A stretch of 51,717 nt of DNA from a virus: IMG/VR virus record IMGVR_UViG_3300045988_038298, one strand, 5' to 3'. Positions 1 through 51,717 of the stretch are shown here, one piece after another; within the stretch, counting starts at the first letter, position 1, and every line of letters begins with the position of its first letter. The position numbers were made by a program, and so were the translations under genes. A model generated the notes under the pieces. That model was not told the origin of the DNA. It saw only the letters and a list, made by a program, of their open reading frames with translations, and did not search any database.

Positions 1-99
1 ATTTTTTTGTTGTACCCATCTTTGATTATTTCTCTACATTTTCTCAGAATTAATTCTTTGTTGCTTTCACAATCACTACTTTGTTTTCTTTGATCGTTA
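1..99. repeat. 99-bp terminal direct repeat, identical to 51619-51717 (circular-closure overlap)
   Basis: Read directly; atttttttgttgtacccatc...ctttgatcgtta is present at both ends. Confidence 0.95.
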
Positions 100-23018: not shown

Positions 23019-23195
23019 ATAAAATAAAACCGCTCCTGTTGGCGCAGGAACGGTTGACACACCAAACTCCGAAGAGCGGTGCAGATTATATGAAGCAATA
23101 ATATTGTATCATCTTCGGGGCAGTCATACAAGCAGAACTGTTGTTCTGTTGTGGGGCTGTTATTTTTGTACTCAAATATAGAAAGGAAGATGATT

Positions 23196-24299
23196 ATGTG
23201 GGTTGAAGAAAGAAAATCAGGATTTAAATTTATTGAACGCTATACAGATCCAATGACAGGAAAAGTTAAACGAGTCTCAATTTCCATGCCAAAAAATACT
23301 GCAAAGAATCGCAAGTTGGCAGCTGCTACACTCCAAGAGCGCATTGATCAGAAATTAAAGACAGCATCAACGCAGAAGAAAGACCTTGCCTTAAAGGAAC
23401 TCATAGAGCTATACAATGTGGAACAACTGAGGACAGTCAAGCAGTCTACGTACAACAGGAACTGTGGAGCGTGTAAGTCTATTGCAAAGATTCTCGGACC
23501 ATCTATCATTGCATCGAAGTTAAATGCGGGATATATCAGAGAACGTTTTCTCGCTACTGGCAGAGCTCCTGGAACGCTCAACGAATGGATGGTAAGGCTC
23601 AAGGCTCTGTTGAGATGGGGATACCGTAATGATTACATTGAAGATATCTCCTATCTCAACAAGATTGAACGGTTTAAAGATGTTTCTCACCGCAAGAAGA
23701 TTGAAGACAAATTTCTTGAGTCCAGCGAAGTGGAATTGTTGCTTGATGAGATGAAAGTGGAAAAATGGAAAGTGCTAACAGAATTCCTCGTCCTGTCTGG
23801 TCTCCGATTCGGCGAAGCAGCTGCGCTTGAGAAACCAGATGTTGATTTGAGAAAGCGTGTGATCCATGTCACGAAAACCTATGATGTCAACAATGACATT
23901 GTAACAACCCCAAAGACGGACTTTTCTATCCGAGACGTATATATTCAAGACGAACTGGCAAAAGTCTGTAGAAAGGCACTGAGAATGGCTCAGAACGACA
24001 ATGTGATACAGTTTAGCAACCTATTGTTCACTGGTACAGTTCGTGAGCACATTGACCACTTCGCTTACAACAAATACCTCAAGGAAAATTCCATGAAAGC
24101 TATCGGTAGAAGCATCACACCACACACGCTAAGACATACACACGCAAGTCTGCTAATGGAACAAGGAATTGATATCGACAGCATCTCAAAAAGACTTGGA
24201 CATAATGACAGTAAGGTCACAAGAGAAATTTATTTACACGTTACGCAGAAGTTGGAAAGTAAACGAAATGAGCAGTTGAAAGAATTGAAAATTTTATAG
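23196..24299 (+). CDS. int: tyrosine recombinase / phage integrase
   Basis: LSGLRFGEAAAL (Arg box), TPHTLRHTHASLL, LGHNDSKVTREIYLHV (catalytic Tyr). Confidence 0.9.
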   Translation: MWVEERKSGFKFIERYTDPMTGKVKRVSISMPKNTAKNRKLAAATLQERIDQKLKTASTQKKDLALKELIELYNVEQLRTVKQSTYNRNCGACKSIAKILGPSIIASKLNAGYIRERFLATGRAPGTLNEWMVRLKALLRWGYRNDYIEDISYLNKIERFKDVSHRKKIEDKFLESSEVELLLDEMKVEKWKVLTEFLVLSGLRFGEAAALEKPDVDLRKRVIHVTKTYDVNNDIVTTPKTDFSIRDVYIQDELAKVCRKALRMAQNDNVIQFSNLLFTGTVREHIDHFAYNKYLKENSMKAIGRSITPHTLRHTHASLLMEQGIDIDSISKRLGHNDSKVTREIYLHVTQKLESKRNEQLKELKIL

Positions 24300-40322: not shown

Positions 40323-40934
40323 CTACCATACTGCCGGTGGTGTGTACACTGGATCCTTGCCGTCTCCTCCGCCTTTGGTTGTAGGTGCTGTGAAAGTTGG
40401 CACATTCGGAGCATCTGTTGGAGCAAATGCATCTTTCTGTGACTCTCTCAGCTCGTTCATGTAATCATCGAGTCCGAGGATTTTTTCACCTTCACGTTTC
40501 AGCCCTTTCTCTTTGATCATGCTGATAATTCCTGTCTTAGCAAACTCAGATGTGAATTTCTCACCTGACAGTGCCTTAATCAGTGCATCATTGAAGTCTC
40601 TCTCTTCAATCTTTGCTGCATAATCTTTCTCGCTGTCCGCAAGTTTTGTCTGCCACTCTTTCTCTGCGGTCTCTGCTTTGGTTTTCCACTCATCACGTTC
40701 TTTTGTGATAGCATCAAAGTCTTTGCCCTCAAATCCTTCAAGTGTAGACTTGGCTGTGTCATACTGTGTTTTAATGTTGTCTCTTTCCTGTGTGACTGTC
40801 TCAAGCTTTCTGCCCTGTTTCTCAAACTCAGCAAGAGTCTTGTAATTCTCATTCACACTGGTTTCGATTGTTTTCTTCTGCTCATCTGTAATCTCAAGAC
40901 CAGCATCGGAAAGAATCTGAATAATGTTTTTCAT
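40323..40934 (-). CDS. scaffolding protein
   Basis: Charged coiled-coil protein of 203 aa upstream of the capsid gene. Confidence 0.7.
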   Translation of the reverse strand: MKNIIQILSDAGLEITDEQKKTIETSVNENYKTLAEFEKQGRKLETVTQERDNIKTQYDTAKSTLEGFEGKDFDAITKERDEWKTKAETAEKEWQTKLADSEKDYAAKIEERDFNDALIKALSGEKFTSEFAKTGIISMIKEKGLKREGEKILGLDDYMNELRESQKDAFAPTDAPNVPTFTAPTTKGGGDGKDPVYTPPAVW

Positions 40935-41208
40935 GTTTCATATCCTCCTCAACGTATTTTATTAACCGTTTCGTCCACGGTAGGGATTCAGACAGATAAA
41001 CCTCTGTCAGGGTAATCGTGGTTGAGGGAGTTGAACCCCCATAGCCATTACCACGCAAGAACAGATGCTATAGAAAGGCAGATTCACATCTGTCCCCAGC
41101 TCCCTTAGGAGCAAAGCCTACCGAGATGTGCGATACCTCTTAACAGGATTCCCCTAGTAGGCTATCTTTCAAAAAAGGAGGCGCAAAAATACGATATATT
41201 CTTCACCC
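40935..41208 (-). ncRNA. structured 5' leader of about 270 nt containing a tRNA-like acceptor/T-arm minihelix (41016-41055)
   Basis: ORF-free; nested helices (41115-41121/41157-41163, 41061-41067/41087-41093); GGGGG-UUCAACU-CCCUC T-arm-like hairpin closed by CGUGGU/ACCACG. Confidence 0.5.
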
Positions 41209-41215
41209 AATACCC

Positions 41216-41250
41216 ATTATGAATGTTTTTGATTACTTCGTTGTACCCAT
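41216..41250 (-). promoter_or_regulatory. phage-specific promoter-like motif, copy b (ATGGGTACAAC-N18-CATAAT)
   Basis: The 11-mer is identical in all three copies with identical 18-nt spacing to a -10-like hexamer. Confidence 0.55.
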
Positions 41251-41252
41251 CT

Positions 41253-42479
41253 TTAACTCTTTTTCGCACTTTCGTATCTTCTTGCAGCAGCTGCACTCTT
41301 CATAGCTTGCTTTCTGTCCCACCGTGCGACTTTCAATCGTTCTGCATACTCTCTTAGGTCATTCTCTTCACAAAATGCACTGTACCGCTTGTTCTGAAGC
41401 TTCAATGTGTGAGCCTTGCGGTCCAACATATTCTGCAATTCAAACCTTGCCTTATCATCCTTACAGTTATCAACAGCTGTCTGCAAGTTCTGTATCTTCC
41501 GCTTGGTGTCACGGATCCTACGCTCCTGTGCTCTCTGTTTCTTCTGCAATTCCTCAACCTTATGGTTATCAGCAAGAGTTATCTTCTTATCCTCATAAGG
41601 ATTGTTCACTCCGTCACCACTTCCAAATGAGTGCCTACAGTTCCAACCGCACAAGCCTTCACCAGTTCCGAAACCAGTTGTCTTAACGAAGTCCGGGAAT
41701 CTCTTATCCTTTCCACTTCGTGAGTAGAACCGTCCTTGCCACCACAAGTGATTGCCAGGATTCATTCCACCGTTTCCGGTACGTGCTCCTAAGTGAGCAG
41801 ACACAAGAACAGTATCCCAGTTCATTTCTTCCATTCTCTTCATGGAGATGTCGGCAGCTGCTTGTCCCACTCCTGTCCTCACGATCATCATCGTTGCTGA
41901 CTCAATGCTCATTCTGTACCCAGTAGGATAGTTCACTTTGAGTCCTACTTCTGTGATATTGTTAATTACATCTCTGACCGCTTGTGTGTACGATACAGCA
42001 CCAGTAGATACAAGATGGTATGCATTGTCCATCTGATTGATGAAAGTCTTCTGTGCATCCAGTGCTGTGGTCCGTGTGAAGTTGTTCCATTCTCCGGCAG
42101 TAGCAAGGTAATCTCTCTCGAGGATCCTGAGCATGGTTGGAGATTGCATCAGTGCTGTTGGAGTGAGTCCGGCTGCAATATACACAGCATCATCCCATTT
42201 CAACGAAGTGATACCAGCATCAATGAAAGCATCCTTGATTTCTTTCTGCTGTAACTTTGTCTTGTCCGCTATTTCCTTCTGGATATCCTCTAGCAGTTCA
42301 CCAGACTCTTGAAGCACTTGTATCTGCCATCGGTCTGTCTGTGTCAACAGATAGTCCTCACCTCTGCCGAGTCTCTTCATGATTCTCTCGATGATCATGT
42401 CCATAATAGTGCGATGAAGGGACGAAGATATCTCCTCCGCCCCTTCTGTTATTCTTTGTAAGTATTCAGGTGTTAGCAT
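41253..42479 (-). CDS. minor head / head morphogenesis protein (SPP1 gp7 / Mu F-like)
   Basis: 408 aa; GWNCRHSF motif; basic coiled-coil C-terminus. Confidence 0.7.
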   Translation of the reverse strand: MLTPEYLQRITEGAEEISSSLHRTIMDMIIERIMKRLGRGEDYLLTQTDRWQIQVLQESGELLEDIQKEIADKTKLQQKEIKDAFIDAGITSLKWDDAVYIAAGLTPTALMQSPTMLRILERDYLATAGEWNNFTRTTALDAQKTFINQMDNAYHLVSTGAVSYTQAVRDVINNITEVGLKVNYPTGYRMSIESATMMIVRTGVGQAAADISMKRMEEMNWDTVLVSAHLGARTGNGGMNPGNHLWWQGRFYSRSGKDKRFPDFVKTTGFGTGEGLCGWNCRHSFGSGDGVNNPYEDKKITLADNHKVEELQKKQRAQERRIRDTKRKIQNLQTAVDNCKDDKARFELQNMLDRKAHTLKLQNKRYSAFCEENDLREYAERLKVARWDRKQAMKSAAAARRYESAKKS

Positions 42480-42653: not shown

Positions 42654-43055
42654 CTACTTTTCGTTCTTTCCAAGAACATTTCTTTCAATGCGATCTTCTA
42701 CTCTACGGTTCATCCACATGAGTGCTTCCTCAATATGAGTAAGTGCACAAGCATTTTCTCTTGACGAAAACGGTCCTGCCTGAAAAGCCTTTAAGCGATC
42801 ACGGACAATTTCCAGTAAATCTGTGTCGATTACACCGTGAAGCGAATCTTTTTCTTTTCGTGGTCCGCACTGCATCTGTAATGTAAGAAGCAGATTCTCC
42901 GGTTCCGCTCTTAACGATGTATCATCATCTTCAAGCGTTGCTGTTCCAGCCTTGTACACACAATATAAGTGATTAGCACCACCTGGACCGATTTCATCTA
43001 CGGCAAATACATCATTTAATTTTTCTCTTTTCTGAATTGTTGATAACTGTTTCAT
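42654..43055 (-). CDS. hypothetical protein (133 aa)
   Basis: Start MKQLSTIQ after RBS ggaaggagg. Confidence 0.5.
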
Positions 43056-43057
43056 TT

Positions 43058-43186
43058 CTAATCCTCCTTCCGTGGCTGTACATTTCCGCAGCCACGGCAA
43101 TATGTTTTTCCATTAACTTCTTTTGTACACATGCAGTTGTGTACTTCATCACATTTCGTTTCATTTACTTCTACATAATCTTTCAT
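43058..43186 (-). CDS. small Cys-rich protein (42 aa)
   Basis: [35 protein letters not shown]... Confidence 0.4.
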
Positions 43187-45135: not shown

Positions 45136-45206
45136 ACGAAATAGGAGGGCTCGAACCTCCATCTCCAACTCTCGCGCTGGTGCTTTACCAATTAAGCTAC
45201 ATTTCG
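45136..45206 (-). tRNA. tRNA-like gene with non-canonical anticodon loop (6 nt, or 8 nt if the closing pair opens; no U33)
   Basis: - strand CGAAATG TA GCTT AATTGGTA AAGC A CCAGC GCGAGA GTTGG AGAT GGAGG TTCGAGC CCTCC TATTTCG T. Confidence 0.6.
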
Positions 45207-45922
45207 TGAGCAGGTGGACAGTAATAAAACCACCTCTGCTACGGTTCTTTATACAGTACGAAGAAAATAGTAAACATTGTGACTATCGTGCAAAAATGTG
45301 AATATTAAATCTTTGACGGAACTCCGCAGCTAAAATCCGTCTGTTACATAAATTTCAAACATAATTAGGTCTTCACCTTATTCAATCATGGTAAAAGTCA
45401 TATTCTGCCACTGTGATGATAGGTCTGAGCTTCCGAGAGCGACTCTTGGCTTCCTATCACTGTCTAAGCACACATGGGATTGATACCCACAAATTTCACG
45501 GTTCTTTCAGAATGTTTTGCATAATGTTTTTTCTTATCCTCTTAAAACATTTTTTGAAAATTAAGAACTTGCCATACCGCTACTTTAACAAACCTCTTGT
45601 GTTATACTCCGATTTCTCAGATTCAAGGCAAATCAGCTTATTGAGAATTTCCAGTTAGTCCGTAGCCTCTCACACCACTCACATCACTGGATTATTTCTG
45701 CACCGCAGACGTCTATTAATCACTGACCACAAGGATTCTGCATTTAACTTCTCTATGATGATACACTGCAAGGCATTGTTGATGGTTTCCATCTCCATCA
45801 CCAGAATCACTCCCAGTGGAAAGAATCAGCTTATCCAATATTTCGAATAAGCCTATCTCGTCACCATTGCATCTCGGCATGACTGAAAAATCACTCTTCA
45901 CCGAGGTAATCATATTTGAAAA

Positions 45923-46001
45923 TAGCCGTATAAGGATTCGAACCTCAATCTTTCACTTTGGTAGGGGTAGAATGAACGCTTTACCATTAAGCTATACGGC
46001 T
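45923..46001 (-). tRNA. tRNA-like gene with a 15-nt anticodon loop
   Basis: - strand AGCCGTA TA GCTT AATGGTA AAGC G TTCAT TCTACCCCTACCAAA GTGAA AGAT TGAGG TTCGAAT CCTTA TACGGCT A. Confidence 0.55.
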
Positions 46002-46061: not shown

Positions 46062-46135
46062 AGCTACCGTTCGGATTCGAACCGAAAACCTGTTGATTCG
46101 TAATCAACTGCTCTATCCATTTGAGCTATGATAGC
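46062..46135 (-). tRNA. tRNA-Arg (anticodon ACG)
   Basis: - strand GCTATCA TA GCTC AAATGGATA GAGC A GTTGA TTACGAA TCAAC AGGTT TTCGG TTCGAAT CCGAA CGGTAGC T; canonical cloverleaf except an A7:C66 mismatch. Confidence 0.85.
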
Positions 46136-50335: not shown

Positions 50336-50370
50336 ATTGTAACTGAATGAAATCTTTTCGTTGTACCCAT
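50336..50370 (-). promoter_or_regulatory. phage-specific promoter-like motif, copy c (ATGGGTACAAC-N18-TACAAT)
   Basis: Same 11-mer and spacing as copies a and b; heads the packaging operon. Confidence 0.55.
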
Positions 50371-50389
50371 ATTTATGAATTTTTGTACA

Positions 50390-51602: not shown

Positions 51603-51637
51603 ATTGTAAATTATGAGGATTTTTTTGTTGTACCCAT
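51603..51637 (-). promoter_or_regulatory. phage-specific promoter-like motif, copy a (ATGGGTACAAC-N18-TACAAT)
   Basis: The 11-mer lies in the terminal overlap (also at 9-19); about 65 nt upstream of the DUF4417 start. Confidence 0.55.
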
Positions 51638-51717
51638 CTTTGATTATTTCTCTACATTTTCTCAGAATTAATTCTTTGTTGCTTTCACAATCACTACTTT
51701 GTTTTCTTTGATCGTTA
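51619..51717. repeat. Second copy of the 99-bp terminal overlap
   Basis: Identical to bases 1-99. Confidence 0.95.

What the first reader, a model, noticed from the sequence alone, without database searches (positions are those of the whole stretch)
40935..41215. Structured leader of about 270 nt with a tRNA-like acceptor/T-arm minihelix ahead of the scaffold-capsid operon
The 318-bp gap between the minor head gene and the scaffold gene has no ORF but is rich in nested helices. On the - strand RNA, 41055 down to 41016 reads CGUGGUAAUGGCUAUGGGGGUUCAACUCCCUCAACCACGA. This is a 6-bp acceptor-like stem stacked on a GGGGG/CCCUC stem with the 7-nt loop UUCAACU, which matches the T-loop consensus including G53-C61. 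D and anticodon arms are absent. Other helices are AGCCUAC/GUAGGCU and ACAGAUG/CAUCUGU. The element starts just downstream of promoter-like motif copy b. It could be an RNase P/Z processing or stabilising handle, an antitermination or regulatory RNA, or a tRNA relic.
Basis: seen in the sequence. Interest (0 to 1): 0.65.

Follow-up and report, generated by a model that had tools for sequence, protein, structure and literature searches.

The report
Truncated tRNA inside scaffold-gene leader

Summary
On the - strand, 41055-41016 forms a 6-bp acceptor-like stem stacked on a 5-bp stem with a consensus T-loop. That pattern occurs four times in the window (three tRNAs plus this) against 0.03 expected per shuffle.

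It is tRNA-derived. At the same position, with flanks that align on both sides, relatives carry one of these:
- a full tRNA-Ile(UAU);
- a tRNA lacking only the anticodon arm;
- a tRNA-like RNA with a 20-27-nt anticodon loop;
- nothing at all.

Every occupant keeps the 12-bp acceptor/T helix, an unencoded CCA, and a discriminator followed by UU(U)ACCC.

The leader is a mosaic:
- a promoter-like box;
- a new three-way junction (41163-41115, 10 of 15 pairs compensatory), replaced by RAGATH-21 in other relatives;
- two hairpins;
- the minihelix;
- a strongly conserved two-hairpin module next to the Shine-Dalgarno sequence, replaced by Rfam GP20-b in other relatives.

Most likely function, inferred and not shown: a t-element-like RNase P/RNase Z processing signal that sets the 5' end of the scaffold-capsid mRNA. 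An inert relic is the main rival, because some relatives lack any tRNA-like piece. I rate it a new variant of known kinds, of moderate interest.

The parts
41240..41252 (-). Conserved box AGATGGGTACAAC directly after the minor-head stop codon. With CATAAT (41221-41216) 18 nt downstream it forms a promoter-like pair; a start near 41209 is inferred.
   Evidence: The same architecture, TACAAC-N18-(T/C)A(C/T)AAT, occurs at 50372 and at 51639 (the latter lies in the 99-nt terminal repeat, so it is the same copy as position 21). The box is kept in L044, L060 and L188. The generic sigma-70 scan did not call it. Function not shown.
41171..41208 (-). 5' hairpin followed by CCUCCUUUUUU, which includes an anti-Shine-Dalgarno-like CCUCCUU at 41181-41175.
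   Evidence: Hairpin in the MFE fold. (A)CCUCCUUUC precedes the 5' module in most relatives whichever module follows. This stretch diverges at a near-neutral rate between subgroups and is partly deleted in the L051/L030 subgroup.
41115..41163 (-). Three-way junction: P1 AGCCUAC/GUAGGCU, P2 AGG-GGAAU-CCU, J23 GUUAA, P3 GAGGU-AUCGCAC-AUCUC.
   Evidence: 15 variants give 93.7% paired cells and 10 of 15 pairs with compensatory changes; slid controls give 34-45% paired. Model R1 finds one copy in the window (71.6 bits) and copies in the L188, L194, L189 and L104 types. No Rfam hit.
41099..41112 (-). Short hairpin GCUCC-UAAG-GGAGC.
   Evidence: It differs at 3-5 of 14 positions from the second subgroup, with the stem kept. 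Any relation to a D arm is conjecture.
41057..41097 (-). Long hairpin GGGGACAGAUG-(19-nt loop)-CAUCUGUUCUU, the likely homologue of a loop-expanded anticodon arm.
   Evidence: It differs at only 2-4 of 41 positions from the second subgroup, against about 33% at adjacent fourfold sites. It shares CAGAUGU, CUUUC and AUAGCAUCUG, in order, with the anticodon arm of the L194-type tRNA-like RNA.
41016..41055 (-). tRNA-derived minihelix: acceptor 5' 41055-41049, linker 41048-41041, T arm 41040-41024, acceptor 3' 41023-41017, discriminator A 41016. No encoded CCA.
   Evidence: It is in register with full tRNA-Ile(UAU) in L060 and L185-187 and with other tRNA-like occupants. In 12 variants, 2 of 22 stem positions vary (both keep the pair) against 8 of 18 non-stem positions; Fisher p = 0.013.
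40943..41015 (-). Constant 3' module: UUACCCU, hp1 GACAGA-GGUUUA-UCUGUC (41008-40991), UGAAUCCCU, hp2 ACCGU-GGACGAA-ACGGU (40981-40965), UAAUAAAAUACGUU, and the Shine-Dalgarno GAGGAGGA (40950-40943).
   Evidence: It differs at 0-4 of 81 positions from the second subgroup, against about 33% at scaffold fourfold sites. It was found in more than 119 IMG/VR stretches. 99% of cells are paired with 3 compensatory pairs. Dulem virus 35 has hp1 as GGUGCA/UGCGCC. It occupies the place of Rfam GP20-b in L044, L056 and L087 but does not score as GP20-a or GP20-b.
40323..40934 (-). Scaffold gene (PF06810, the 'GP20' family) served by the leader. The major head gene follows at 40254-39403.
   Evidence: Pfam PF06810 at 74.6 bits; phrog_194 and phrog_267.
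41253..42479 (-). Upstream minor head gene (PF06152).

Best explanation
The 40-nt minihelix is what remains of a tRNA or tRNA-like cassette. In this family of temperate Lachnospiraceae-type gut phages the cassette sits inside the 5' leader of the scaffold-capsid mRNA. It lies between a 5' structured module (here a new three-way junction, RAGATH-21 in other relatives) and a conserved two-hairpin module next to the ribosome-binding site (here a GP20-b-like variant).

Shown:
- It is tRNA-derived and in register with intact tRNA-Ile(UAU) genes of relatives.
- Its acceptor/T-arm helix is under structural constraint.
- Every occupant of the site ends with a discriminator, no CCA, and UU(U)ACCC.

Inferred:
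- It has lost decoding but is kept as a t-element-like processing signal.
- Host RNase P cuts 5' of C41055.
- RNase Z cuts after A41016.
- This detaches the promoter-proximal part of the leader (5' hairpin, anti-SD-like CCUCC, three-way junction, hairpins).
- The scaffold-capsid mRNA is left starting at UUACCC followed by two hairpins, a form expected to be stable and translatable.

The adjacent 3' module is most likely a cis-regulatory operator for scaffold synthesis. Its effector is unknown.
For: Ancestry and register:
- L060 and L185-187 have an ARAGORN/Rfam tRNA-Ile(UAU) whose 3' end abuts the same (U)UUACCCC-hp1-hp2-SD module and whose 5' side follows the same three-way junction.
- Other occupants of the site are the L205 and L192 tRNA-Ile types, the L188 type (tRNA model 53.1 bits, 20-27-nt anticodon loop), L194, L189, and the L044 and L055 types (tRNA minus the anticodon arm; L044 scores 41.8 bits).

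Structure kept:
- Across 14 distinct occupants the 12-bp acceptor/T helix is 94% paired, 11 of 12 pairs carry compensatory changes, and G53-C61 and U54 U55 C56 A58 are invariant.
- Within the window type, 12 variants vary at 2 of 22 stem positions (both keep the pair) against 8 of 18 non-stem positions, p = 0.013.
- Stem change against the second subgroup is 1 of 22, where adjacent fourfold sites differ by 16-33%.
- In the L188 type, variation sits almost wholly in the anticodon loop while the cloverleaf stems are kept. That fits recognition by shape and not decoding.

Enzymology and precedent:
- In Firmicutes, RNase Z cuts CCA-less precursors 3' of the discriminator, and type B RNase P processes CCA-less precursors with long 5' leaders first (PMC1874595).
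- Plant mitochondrial t-elements, found with the same GGTTCRANYCC motif, set mRNA ends through RNase P and RNase Z (PMC1920247).

Chance is excluded.
Against: - There are no transcript data, so the promoter, co-transcription and cleavage are all unverified.
- Relatives with 78-90% identical minor head proteins (L181-L184), as well as L268, L273, L087 and Dulem virus 35, have no tRNA-like piece between the 5' module and the 3' module. The cassette is therefore not required for leader function.
- The window form has an 8-nt bulge between the acceptor and the T stem and an A.A mismatch at 7-66. Neither has been tested as an RNase P or RNase Z substrate.
- The constraint statistics are modest and rest on closely related, mosaic sequences.
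- The 14-occupant comparison mixes tRNAs that may not be orthologous, so it shows that the site is always filled by a tRNA shape, not descent.
Confidence: 0.5

Rival explanations
1. Inert relic. A phage tRNA gene once carried in the highly transcribed leader lost its D and anticodon parts, and the remaining minihelix has no present function.
For: The cassette is absent without replacement in L181-L184, L268, L273, L087 and Dulem virus 35. Neither ARAGORN nor the Rfam tRNA model calls the window's copy. Its divergence from the second subgroup (5 of 40) is no lower than fourfold sites of the minor head gene (about 16%).
Against: All stem changes in 12 variants keep the pairs, and variation concentrates in the linker and at T-loop positions 57 and 59. 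At least three different non-decoding forms (minihelix, anticodon-arm-less, loop-expanded) all keep the acceptor and T arms across many contigs. Acceptor stems differ completely between the L044 and L055 types yet still pair.
Confidence: 0.27
2. Cis-acting translational switch. The 3' strand of the minihelix (CCUCAAC, 41027-41021) or the upstream CCUCCUU (41181-41175) pairs with GUUGAGGAGG at the ribosome-binding site, so that folding of the minihelix decides whether the scaffold gene is translated.
For: In a 128-nt fragment the MFE pairs CCCUCAAC with GUUGAGG instead of forming the minihelix. In the tRNA-less leaders L181 and L184 the MFE closes the whole leader by pairing CACCUCCUUU with AGGAGG. 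(A)CCUCCUUUC is conserved 5' of both the three-way junction and RAGATH-21.
Against: In the full-length fold the minihelix forms and the Shine-Dalgarno sequence is not paired with it. The complementarity to the T-arm strand is specific to this lineage, because the L188 type has the same ribosome-binding site but a different T arm. The upstream CCUCC is deleted in the L051/L030 subgroup. A 7-nt match to a purine-rich site is not rare.
Confidence: 0.1
3. Released trans-acting small RNA. After RNase P/Z processing and CCA addition, the tRNA-shaped piece acts on its own, for example as a decoy or competitor for host or defence factors that recognise the tRNA elbow or acceptor end.
For: Non-decoding tRNA shapes are maintained at this site in many phages. 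The same genome has other odd tRNA-like genes next to a ROOL RNA. A catalogue of phage structured RNAs reports highly expressed small RNAs in Lachnospiraceae phages, but no link to this locus could be checked (PMC10690425).
Against: No target or partner was identified. The position is fixed next to the scaffold leader, which argues for a cis role. Loss in close relatives argues against an essential trans role.
Confidence: 0.1
4. attP core, meaning the 3' end of a host tRNA gene kept for site-specific integration.
For: Phage attachment sites often contain the T-arm and 3' acceptor end of a tRNA gene (general knowledge).
Against: The integrase is at 23151-24299, about 17 kb away and next to the endolysin. 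The element lies inside the head operon, carries its own complementary 5' acceptor strand, and in relatives is replaced by complete tRNAs in the same operon.
Confidence: 0.01

Closest known systems
t-elements of plant mitochondria (tRNA-like processing signals; Forner et al. 2007, PMC1920247)
   Same: Non-canonical tRNA-like fold that keeps the GGTTCRANYCC T arm and an acceptor stem. It lies in an mRNA leader or trailer, and in plants its ends define mRNA ends through RNase P and RNase Z. The window element matches the motif and lies in an mRNA leader.
   Different: Different domain of life and enzymes (bacterial RNA-based type B RNase P expected). No end mapping here. The window form is more reduced, with no D or anticodon arm inside the acceptor helix. 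This is an analogy of mechanism, not common descent.
GP20-b and GP20-a RNA motifs (Rfam RF03003, RF02991) and the six further candidate RNAs reported directly upstream of GP20 genes (PMC10690425)
   Same: Cis-located structured RNA immediately upstream of a PF06810 (GP20/scaffold) gene. GP20-b itself occupies this place in L044, L056 and L087, directly after the tRNA-like piece or RAGATH-21. The layout is shared: two hairpins, an A-rich tail, then the Shine-Dalgarno sequence. ACCGU-loop-ACGGUUA resembles ACCG-loop-CGGUUA in L044.
   Different: The window's 3' module gets no hit from either model at E <= 10, and the GGUG/CACC helix of GP20-b cannot form. No function is known for any of them.
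RAGATH-21 RNA (Rfam RF03097)
   Same: It occupies the same slot as the window's three-way junction. It sits 5' of the tRNA(-like) piece or of the 3' module, after (A)CCUCCUUUC, in L205, L268, L259, L273, L087 and Dulem virus 35.
   Different: No sequence or fold similarity to the three-way junction, and no hit in the window. The function of RAGATH-21 is unknown; RAGATH motifs are defined by gene neighbourhood with twister and hammerhead ribozymes (PMC11061315).
Phage-encoded tRNA genes, here tRNA-Ile(UAU)
   Same: It sits in register with genuine tRNA-Ile(UAU) genes of relatives. T-loop consensus, 7+5 stacked helix, discriminator A, CCA not encoded.
   Different: No D arm and no anticodon arm, so it cannot decode. 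Not called by ARAGORN or by RF00005.
mascRNA/MALAT1-type tRNA-like processing elements (from my own knowledge)
   Same: A tRNA-like structure embedded in a longer transcript, cut by RNase P and RNase Z, with CCA addition to the released piece.
   Different: Eukaryotic, sets a 3' end, and has a full cloverleaf-like fold. This is only a mechanistic analogy.

Membership tests
tRNA (RF00005 / ARAGORN) | T arm with consensus loop and G53-C61, stacked on a 7-bp acceptor stem | tested here: met
   GGGGG-UUCAACU-CCCUC, then AACCACG paired with CGUGGU(A).
tRNA (RF00005 / ARAGORN) | D arm and anticodon arm with a 7-nt loop inside the acceptor helix | tested here: not met
   Only an 8-nt linker lies between positions 7 and 49.
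tRNA (RF00005 / ARAGORN) | Covariance-model score at or above gathering (29 bits), or an ARAGORN call | tested here: not met
   No tRNA hit in 40800-41400 at E <= 10. ARAGORN finds none there. Relatives do score: L044 41.8, L188 53.1, L194 37.2 and L060 60.3 bits.
t-element (plant mitochondria; functional class) | Non-canonical tRNA-like fold containing GGTTCRANYCC | tested here: met
   GGTTCAACTCC at 41037-41027; definition from PMC1920247.
t-element (plant mitochondria; functional class) | Ends of the element coincide with mapped mRNA ends; cleaved by RNase P and RNase Z | not testable with these tools
   No transcript or enzymatic data are available.
GP20-b / GP20-a (RF03003 / RF02991) | Located directly upstream of a PF06810 (GP20) gene | tested here: met
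   The scaffold gene is PF06810 at 74.6 bits. The module ends at the Shine-Dalgarno sequence, 8 nt before the start codon.
GP20-b / GP20-a (RF03003 / RF02991) | Covariance-model score at or above gathering (36.2 bits for GP20-b) | tested here: not met
   No hit at E <= 10 in the window or at E <= 1 in L188, which shares the module. L044 (45.6), L087 (40.9) and L056 (39.7) do hit.
RAGATH-21 (RF03097) | Covariance-model match | tested here: not met
   No hit in the window. It is present in relatives at the slot held here by the three-way junction.
tmRNA tRNA-like domain | Acceptor stem formed by the distant 5' and 3' ends, plus a tag reading frame | tested here: not met
   ARAGORN finds no tmRNA, and the acceptor stem here is local.
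attP tRNA-gene fragment | Adjacent to the integrase and outside operons | tested here: not met
   The integrase is at 23151-24299, while the element lies inside the head operon.

The most novel reading that the evidence does not exclude
Phage 'tRNA punctuation'. Non-decoding tRNA shapes (minihelix, anticodon-arm-less, loop-expanded) are maintained in scaffold-gene leaders only as host RNase P/RNase Z cleavage signals. Cleavage would remove an upstream regulatory block, made of an anti-Shine-Dalgarno tract plus either the new three-way junction or RAGATH-21. It would leave a stable, translatable scaffold-capsid mRNA that starts at the conserved GP20-type module. The three-way junction would then be a new RNA class functionally interchangeable with RAGATH-21, which would give a first functional handle on both RAGATH-21 and the GP20 motifs.
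Probability: 0.3. Interest if true: 0.7.

Novelty: new variant of a known kind. Interest (0 to 1): 0.55.

Why it matters
Scaffold and capsid proteins are needed in far larger amounts than the portal and minor head proteins encoded just upstream, and how tailed phages set that ratio after transcription is poorly known.

This locus shows that many uncultured gut phages build the scaffold-gene leader from interchangeable RNA modules. In relatives, two of these slots are filled by orphan Rfam motifs (RAGATH-21 and GP20-b). A tRNA-shaped cassette, with or without decoding ability, is repeatedly placed at one exact junction.

If that cassette is a cleavage signal, it would be a bacterial-virus counterpart of organellar tRNA punctuation and t-elements, and it would give testable functions to the neighbouring orphan motifs. 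It also warns annotators that such leaders get called as small hypothetical proteins, as in GenBank PP511522.1.

Tried and rejected
- Rfam on the window, at gathering thresholds and at E <= 10 on 40800-41400, gave nothing in the gap except a chance SNORD75 match.
- The exact 24-mer of the minihelix has no match in IMG/VR, because the window carries a minority G50/A57 variant.
- Hammerhead reading of the three-way junction: by inspection, CUGAU(A)AA lacks G8 and there is no GAAA after P3. Rejected.
- The three-way junction as a T-armless tRNA: the P3 loop is 7 nt with U33/A37 in some variants but 6-8 nt in others, and 5 nt separate P2 from P3. Rejected.
- tmRNA and attP readings were rejected.
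- Coding potential of the gap was rejected because of a frameshifting indel.
- The generic sigma-70 and terminator scan found nothing on the - strand in the gap.
- A long-range GGGUA/UACCC helix seen in the MFE is not conserved in L060 or L181 on inspection.
- Anchoring a metagenome scan on a 17-mer gave mostly chance hits. Only 17 true loci were usable.
- No supplement text is held for PMC10690425, so identity with its catalogued motifs could not be checked.
- The only GenBank phage with similarity is Dulem virus 35.

Full report
**Setting.** The window is a complete, circularly assembled genome: a 99-nt terminal repeat, 40% G+C. It belongs to a temperate tailed phage. On the - strand it encodes terminase (49138-47798), portal (47810-46401), a tRNA/ROOL RNA cluster (46135-45136), minor head protein PF06152 (42479-41253), scaffold PF06810 (40934-40323) and major head protein (40254-39403). 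The endolysin and the integrase lie near 24-25 kb. Relatives are gut-metagenome phages and prophages of Lachnospiraceae such as Coprococcus comes and Enterocloster. The finding lies in the 318-nt gap between the minor head and scaffold genes.

**Observation.** The sequence and helices are exactly as described. The minihelix comprises:
- acceptor CGUGGU/ACCACG;
- an 8-nt linker;
- T stem GGGGG/CCCUC with G53-C61;
- loop UUCAACU;
- discriminator A.

A scan for a consensus T arm with a directly stacked acceptor stem of at least 6 bp finds four sites in the whole window: the three tRNAs and this one. Dinucleotide shuffles give 0.03 per window. ARAGORN and Rfam do not call it, and nothing else in Rfam matches the gap.

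**What it is.** The gap is 96-98% identical in about 36 IMG/VR loci and 82-84% identical in a second subgroup. More distant relatives settle the question.
- L060 and L185-187 (minor head 72-73% identical) have, at the same place, a complete tRNA-Ile(UAU). It is called by ARAGORN and scores 60.3 bits with the Rfam tRNA model. Its flanks align with the window on both sides. In that register the window keeps positions 1-7, 49-65, 66-72 and 73, and replaces everything between with 8 nt.
- I then anchored a scan on the conserved module downstream. It returned more than 119 IMG/VR stretches.

Counts below are loci, and some contigs were fetched twice. What lies immediately 5' of UUACCC is one of the following:

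| Occupant of the site | Loci or examples |
|---|---|
| Window-type minihelix | 88 loci |
| tRNA-like with normal acceptor, D and T arms and a 20-27-nt anticodon loop (L188 type; Rfam tRNA 53.1 bits, ARAGORN negative) | 56 loci |
| Full tRNA-Ile(UAU) of three sequence types | 17 loci |
| Other loop-expanded forms | L194, L189 |
| tRNA-Met(CAU) | L259 |
| tRNA lacking only the anticodon arm, in GP20-b-type leaders | L043/L044 (41.8 bits), L055/L056 |
| Nothing | L181-L184 (minor head 78-90% identical), L268, L273, L087, Dulem virus 35 |

Across 14 distinct occupants the 12-bp acceptor/T helix is 94% paired. Eleven of 12 pairs carry compensatory changes, and the T-loop invariants are kept. The discriminator is followed by UU in nearly all, and none encodes CCA.

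The long hairpin just upstream in the window (41097-41057) shares CAGAUGU, CUUUC and AUAGCAUCUG, in order, with the expanded anticodon arm of the L194 type. The window element therefore looks like a rearranged derivative of such a tRNA-like RNA and not a simple deletion.

**The leader is a mosaic.**
- *Start of the gap.* A box ATGGGTACAAC, followed 18 nt later by CATAAT, sits directly after the minor-head stop codon. The same architecture occurs at two other places in the genome and in relatives. This is a candidate promoter and is not verified.
- *5' module.* A three-way junction at 41163-41115 has 93.7% paired cells and compensatory changes in 10 of 15 pairs. All three helices covary, and controls give 34-45% paired. 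The L188 type adds further compensatory changes in P1 and P2.
- *Where else the junction occurs.* A covariance model finds it once in the window. It also finds it in the L188, L194 and L189 leaders, and in about 25 larger phages where it lies between tRNA-Gly and tRNA-Met in a tRNA array. It has no Rfam match.
- *Replacement of the 5' module.* In other leaders the same slot holds RAGATH-21.
- *3' module.* UUACCC, hp1, UGAAUCC, hp2, an A-rich tail and the Shine-Dalgarno sequence form the most conserved part. It differs at 0-4 of 81 positions from the second subgroup, while fourfold sites of the adjacent scaffold gene differ by about 33%. Its hairpins covary (Dulem virus 35).
- *Replacement of the 3' module.* In L044, L056 and L087 this slot holds Rfam GP20-b. 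The window's version has a similar layout but does not score as GP20-a or GP20-b.
- *What is already known.* Structured RNAs upstream of GP20 genes are a described class of unknown function (PMC10690425).
- *Pyrimidine tract.* (A)CCUCCUUUC, identical to the 3' end of 16S rRNA (my own knowledge), precedes the 5' module in most leader types. In the tRNA-less leaders L181 and L184 it is predicted to pair with the Shine-Dalgarno sequence.

**Is the minihelix still constrained?** Twelve variants are known.
- Two of 22 stem positions vary, and both changes keep the pair: C1 to U gives U.G, and G50 to A turns G.U into A-U.
- Eight of 18 non-stem positions vary: five linker positions (the linker also carries one indel), T-loop positions 57 (A or G) and 59, and the unpaired position 66.
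- Fisher p = 0.013.
- Against the second subgroup, 1 of 22 stem positions differs, where 16-33% would be expected from neighbouring fourfold sites (p between 0.11 and 0.002 depending on the baseline).
- In the L188 type, length and sequence changes sit in the anticodon loop while the stems are kept.

This supports selection on the tRNA shape. It does not prove it.

**Mechanism.**
- *Shown:* tRNA ancestry, the register, the conserved helix, the fixed 3' boundary, and the modular context.
- *Inferred:* the element works as a processing signal. In Firmicutes, RNase Z cleaves CCA-less precursors 3' of the discriminator, and type B RNase P processes CCA-less precursors with long 5' leaders first (PMC1874595). 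From my own knowledge, acceptor/T-arm minihelices are model substrates of bacterial RNase P. Plant mitochondrial t-elements, found with the same motif, set mRNA ends in this way (PMC1920247).

Cleavage at 41055 and 41016 would free the scaffold-capsid mRNA from the upstream modules and start it at the conserved 3' module. In relatives with an intact gene, the same cuts would also deliver tRNA-Ile(UAU) from a strongly transcribed late message.

The 3' module may be an operator for post-transcriptional control of scaffold synthesis. Such autoregulation is described for P22 (references cited in PMC5529062). This last point is conjecture.

**Against this reading.** Several relatives lack any tRNA-like piece, so it is dispensable for the leader. 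There are no transcript data. The bulged, mismatched window form is untested as a substrate. The main rival is an inert relic. Lesser rivals are a switch that sequesters the Shine-Dalgarno sequence and a released trans-acting small RNA. The attP, tmRNA, coding and terminator readings are excluded.

**Novelty and verdict.** Counterparts of its modules belong to known orphan families (tRNA, GP20-b, RAGATH-21). As far as I could find, three things are not described:
- the recurrent placement of tRNA and non-decoding tRNA shapes at one junction of these leaders;
- the minihelix form itself;
- the three-way junction.

I rate it a new variant of known kinds, interest 0.55.

**Caveats.**
- The alignments of the junction and the minihelix were assembled by hand from extracted segments.
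- The 14-occupant comparison may mix non-orthologous tRNAs.

Noticed in passing
window 45347-45929 (-), with tRNAs at 45136-45206, 45923-46001 and 46062-46135 (-): A full-length ROOL RNA (RF03087, 363 bits) lies between the portal and minor head genes. It is flanked by three tRNA genes, and one tRNA overlaps its 5' end by a few bases.
   Followed up: partly
window 45923-46001 (-) and 45136-45206 (-): Two odd tRNA genes. One has the anticodon stem UUCAU/GUGAA with a 15-nt loop UCUACCCCUACCAAA; Rfam calls it a tRNA at 56.9 bits and ARAGORN misses it. The other has a 6-nt anticodon loop, which ARAGORN reports as a 2-nt anticodon. Loop-expanded tRNA-like genes recur in this phage group (the L188, L194 and L189 types).
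   Followed up: partly
window 41240-41252, 50361-50372, 51628-51639 (the last is the same copy as 10-21) (-): The box ATGGGTACAAC is followed 18 nt later by (T/C)A(C/T)AAT at three places in the genome. This is a candidate phage-specific promoter class. At the other two sites an inverted repeat spans the spacer and the downstream sequence.
   Followed up: partly
window 1-99 and 51619-51717: The two ends are an identical 99-nt direct repeat, so the window is a circularly closed assembly of about 51.6 kb.
   Followed up: yes
window 41175-41181 (-); L181, L060, L188, L205, L268, L273, L044, L055, L395: (A)CCUCCUUUC, the same as the 3' end of 16S rRNA (anti-Shine-Dalgarno), is conserved just 5' of the first structured module whether that module is the three-way junction or RAGATH-21. 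It is predicted to pair with the scaffold Shine-Dalgarno sequence in the tRNA-less leaders.
   Followed up: partly
L104 4300-5400 (-) and about 25 similar IMG/VR loci (L097, L101, L110, L122 and others): The same three-way junction plus hairpins lies between tRNA-Gly(UCC) and tRNA-Met(CAU) in a tRNA array of larger (about 50-55 kb) phages, away from any scaffold gene. The junction is therefore linked to tRNAs as well as to GP20 leaders.
   Followed up: partly
L395 (GenBank PP511522.1, Dulem virus 35) 1424-1555: An annotated 'hypothetical protein' CDS (XCD05100.1) overlaps a RAGATH-21 RNA and the conserved 3' leader module upstream of the scaffold gene. This is probably a miscalled ORF.
   Followed up: partly
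window 42654-43100 (-); L181, L183, L184 upstream of the minor head gene: The 148-aa ORF upstream of the minor head gene has an Acb2/Tad1 hairpin domain (PF24729, 34.8 bits). Relatives carry Tad2-like and Acb2/Tad1 genes at the same place, so candidate anti-defence sponge genes sit inside the head-gene block.
   Followed up: no
L055 and L056 4685-4781 (+): A skipping-rope RNA (RF02924, 53.5 bits) lies just downstream of the minor head gene in these prophage-like loci.
   Followed up: no
L060 1163-1240 (+): ARAGORN calls a tRNA with a 4-nt anticodon (gcaa) in a tRNA cluster upstream of the head genes. Rfam scores the same site as a tRNA at 39.1 bits.
   Followed up: no
L181 3775-3909, L183 3703-3837, L184 3774-3908: A called 44-aa gene lies between the minor head gene and the leader in the tRNA-less relatives. 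A sub-threshold gut-2 RNA match (RF02990, 32.1 bits against 39.8) lies at L181 3898-3943.
   Followed up: no
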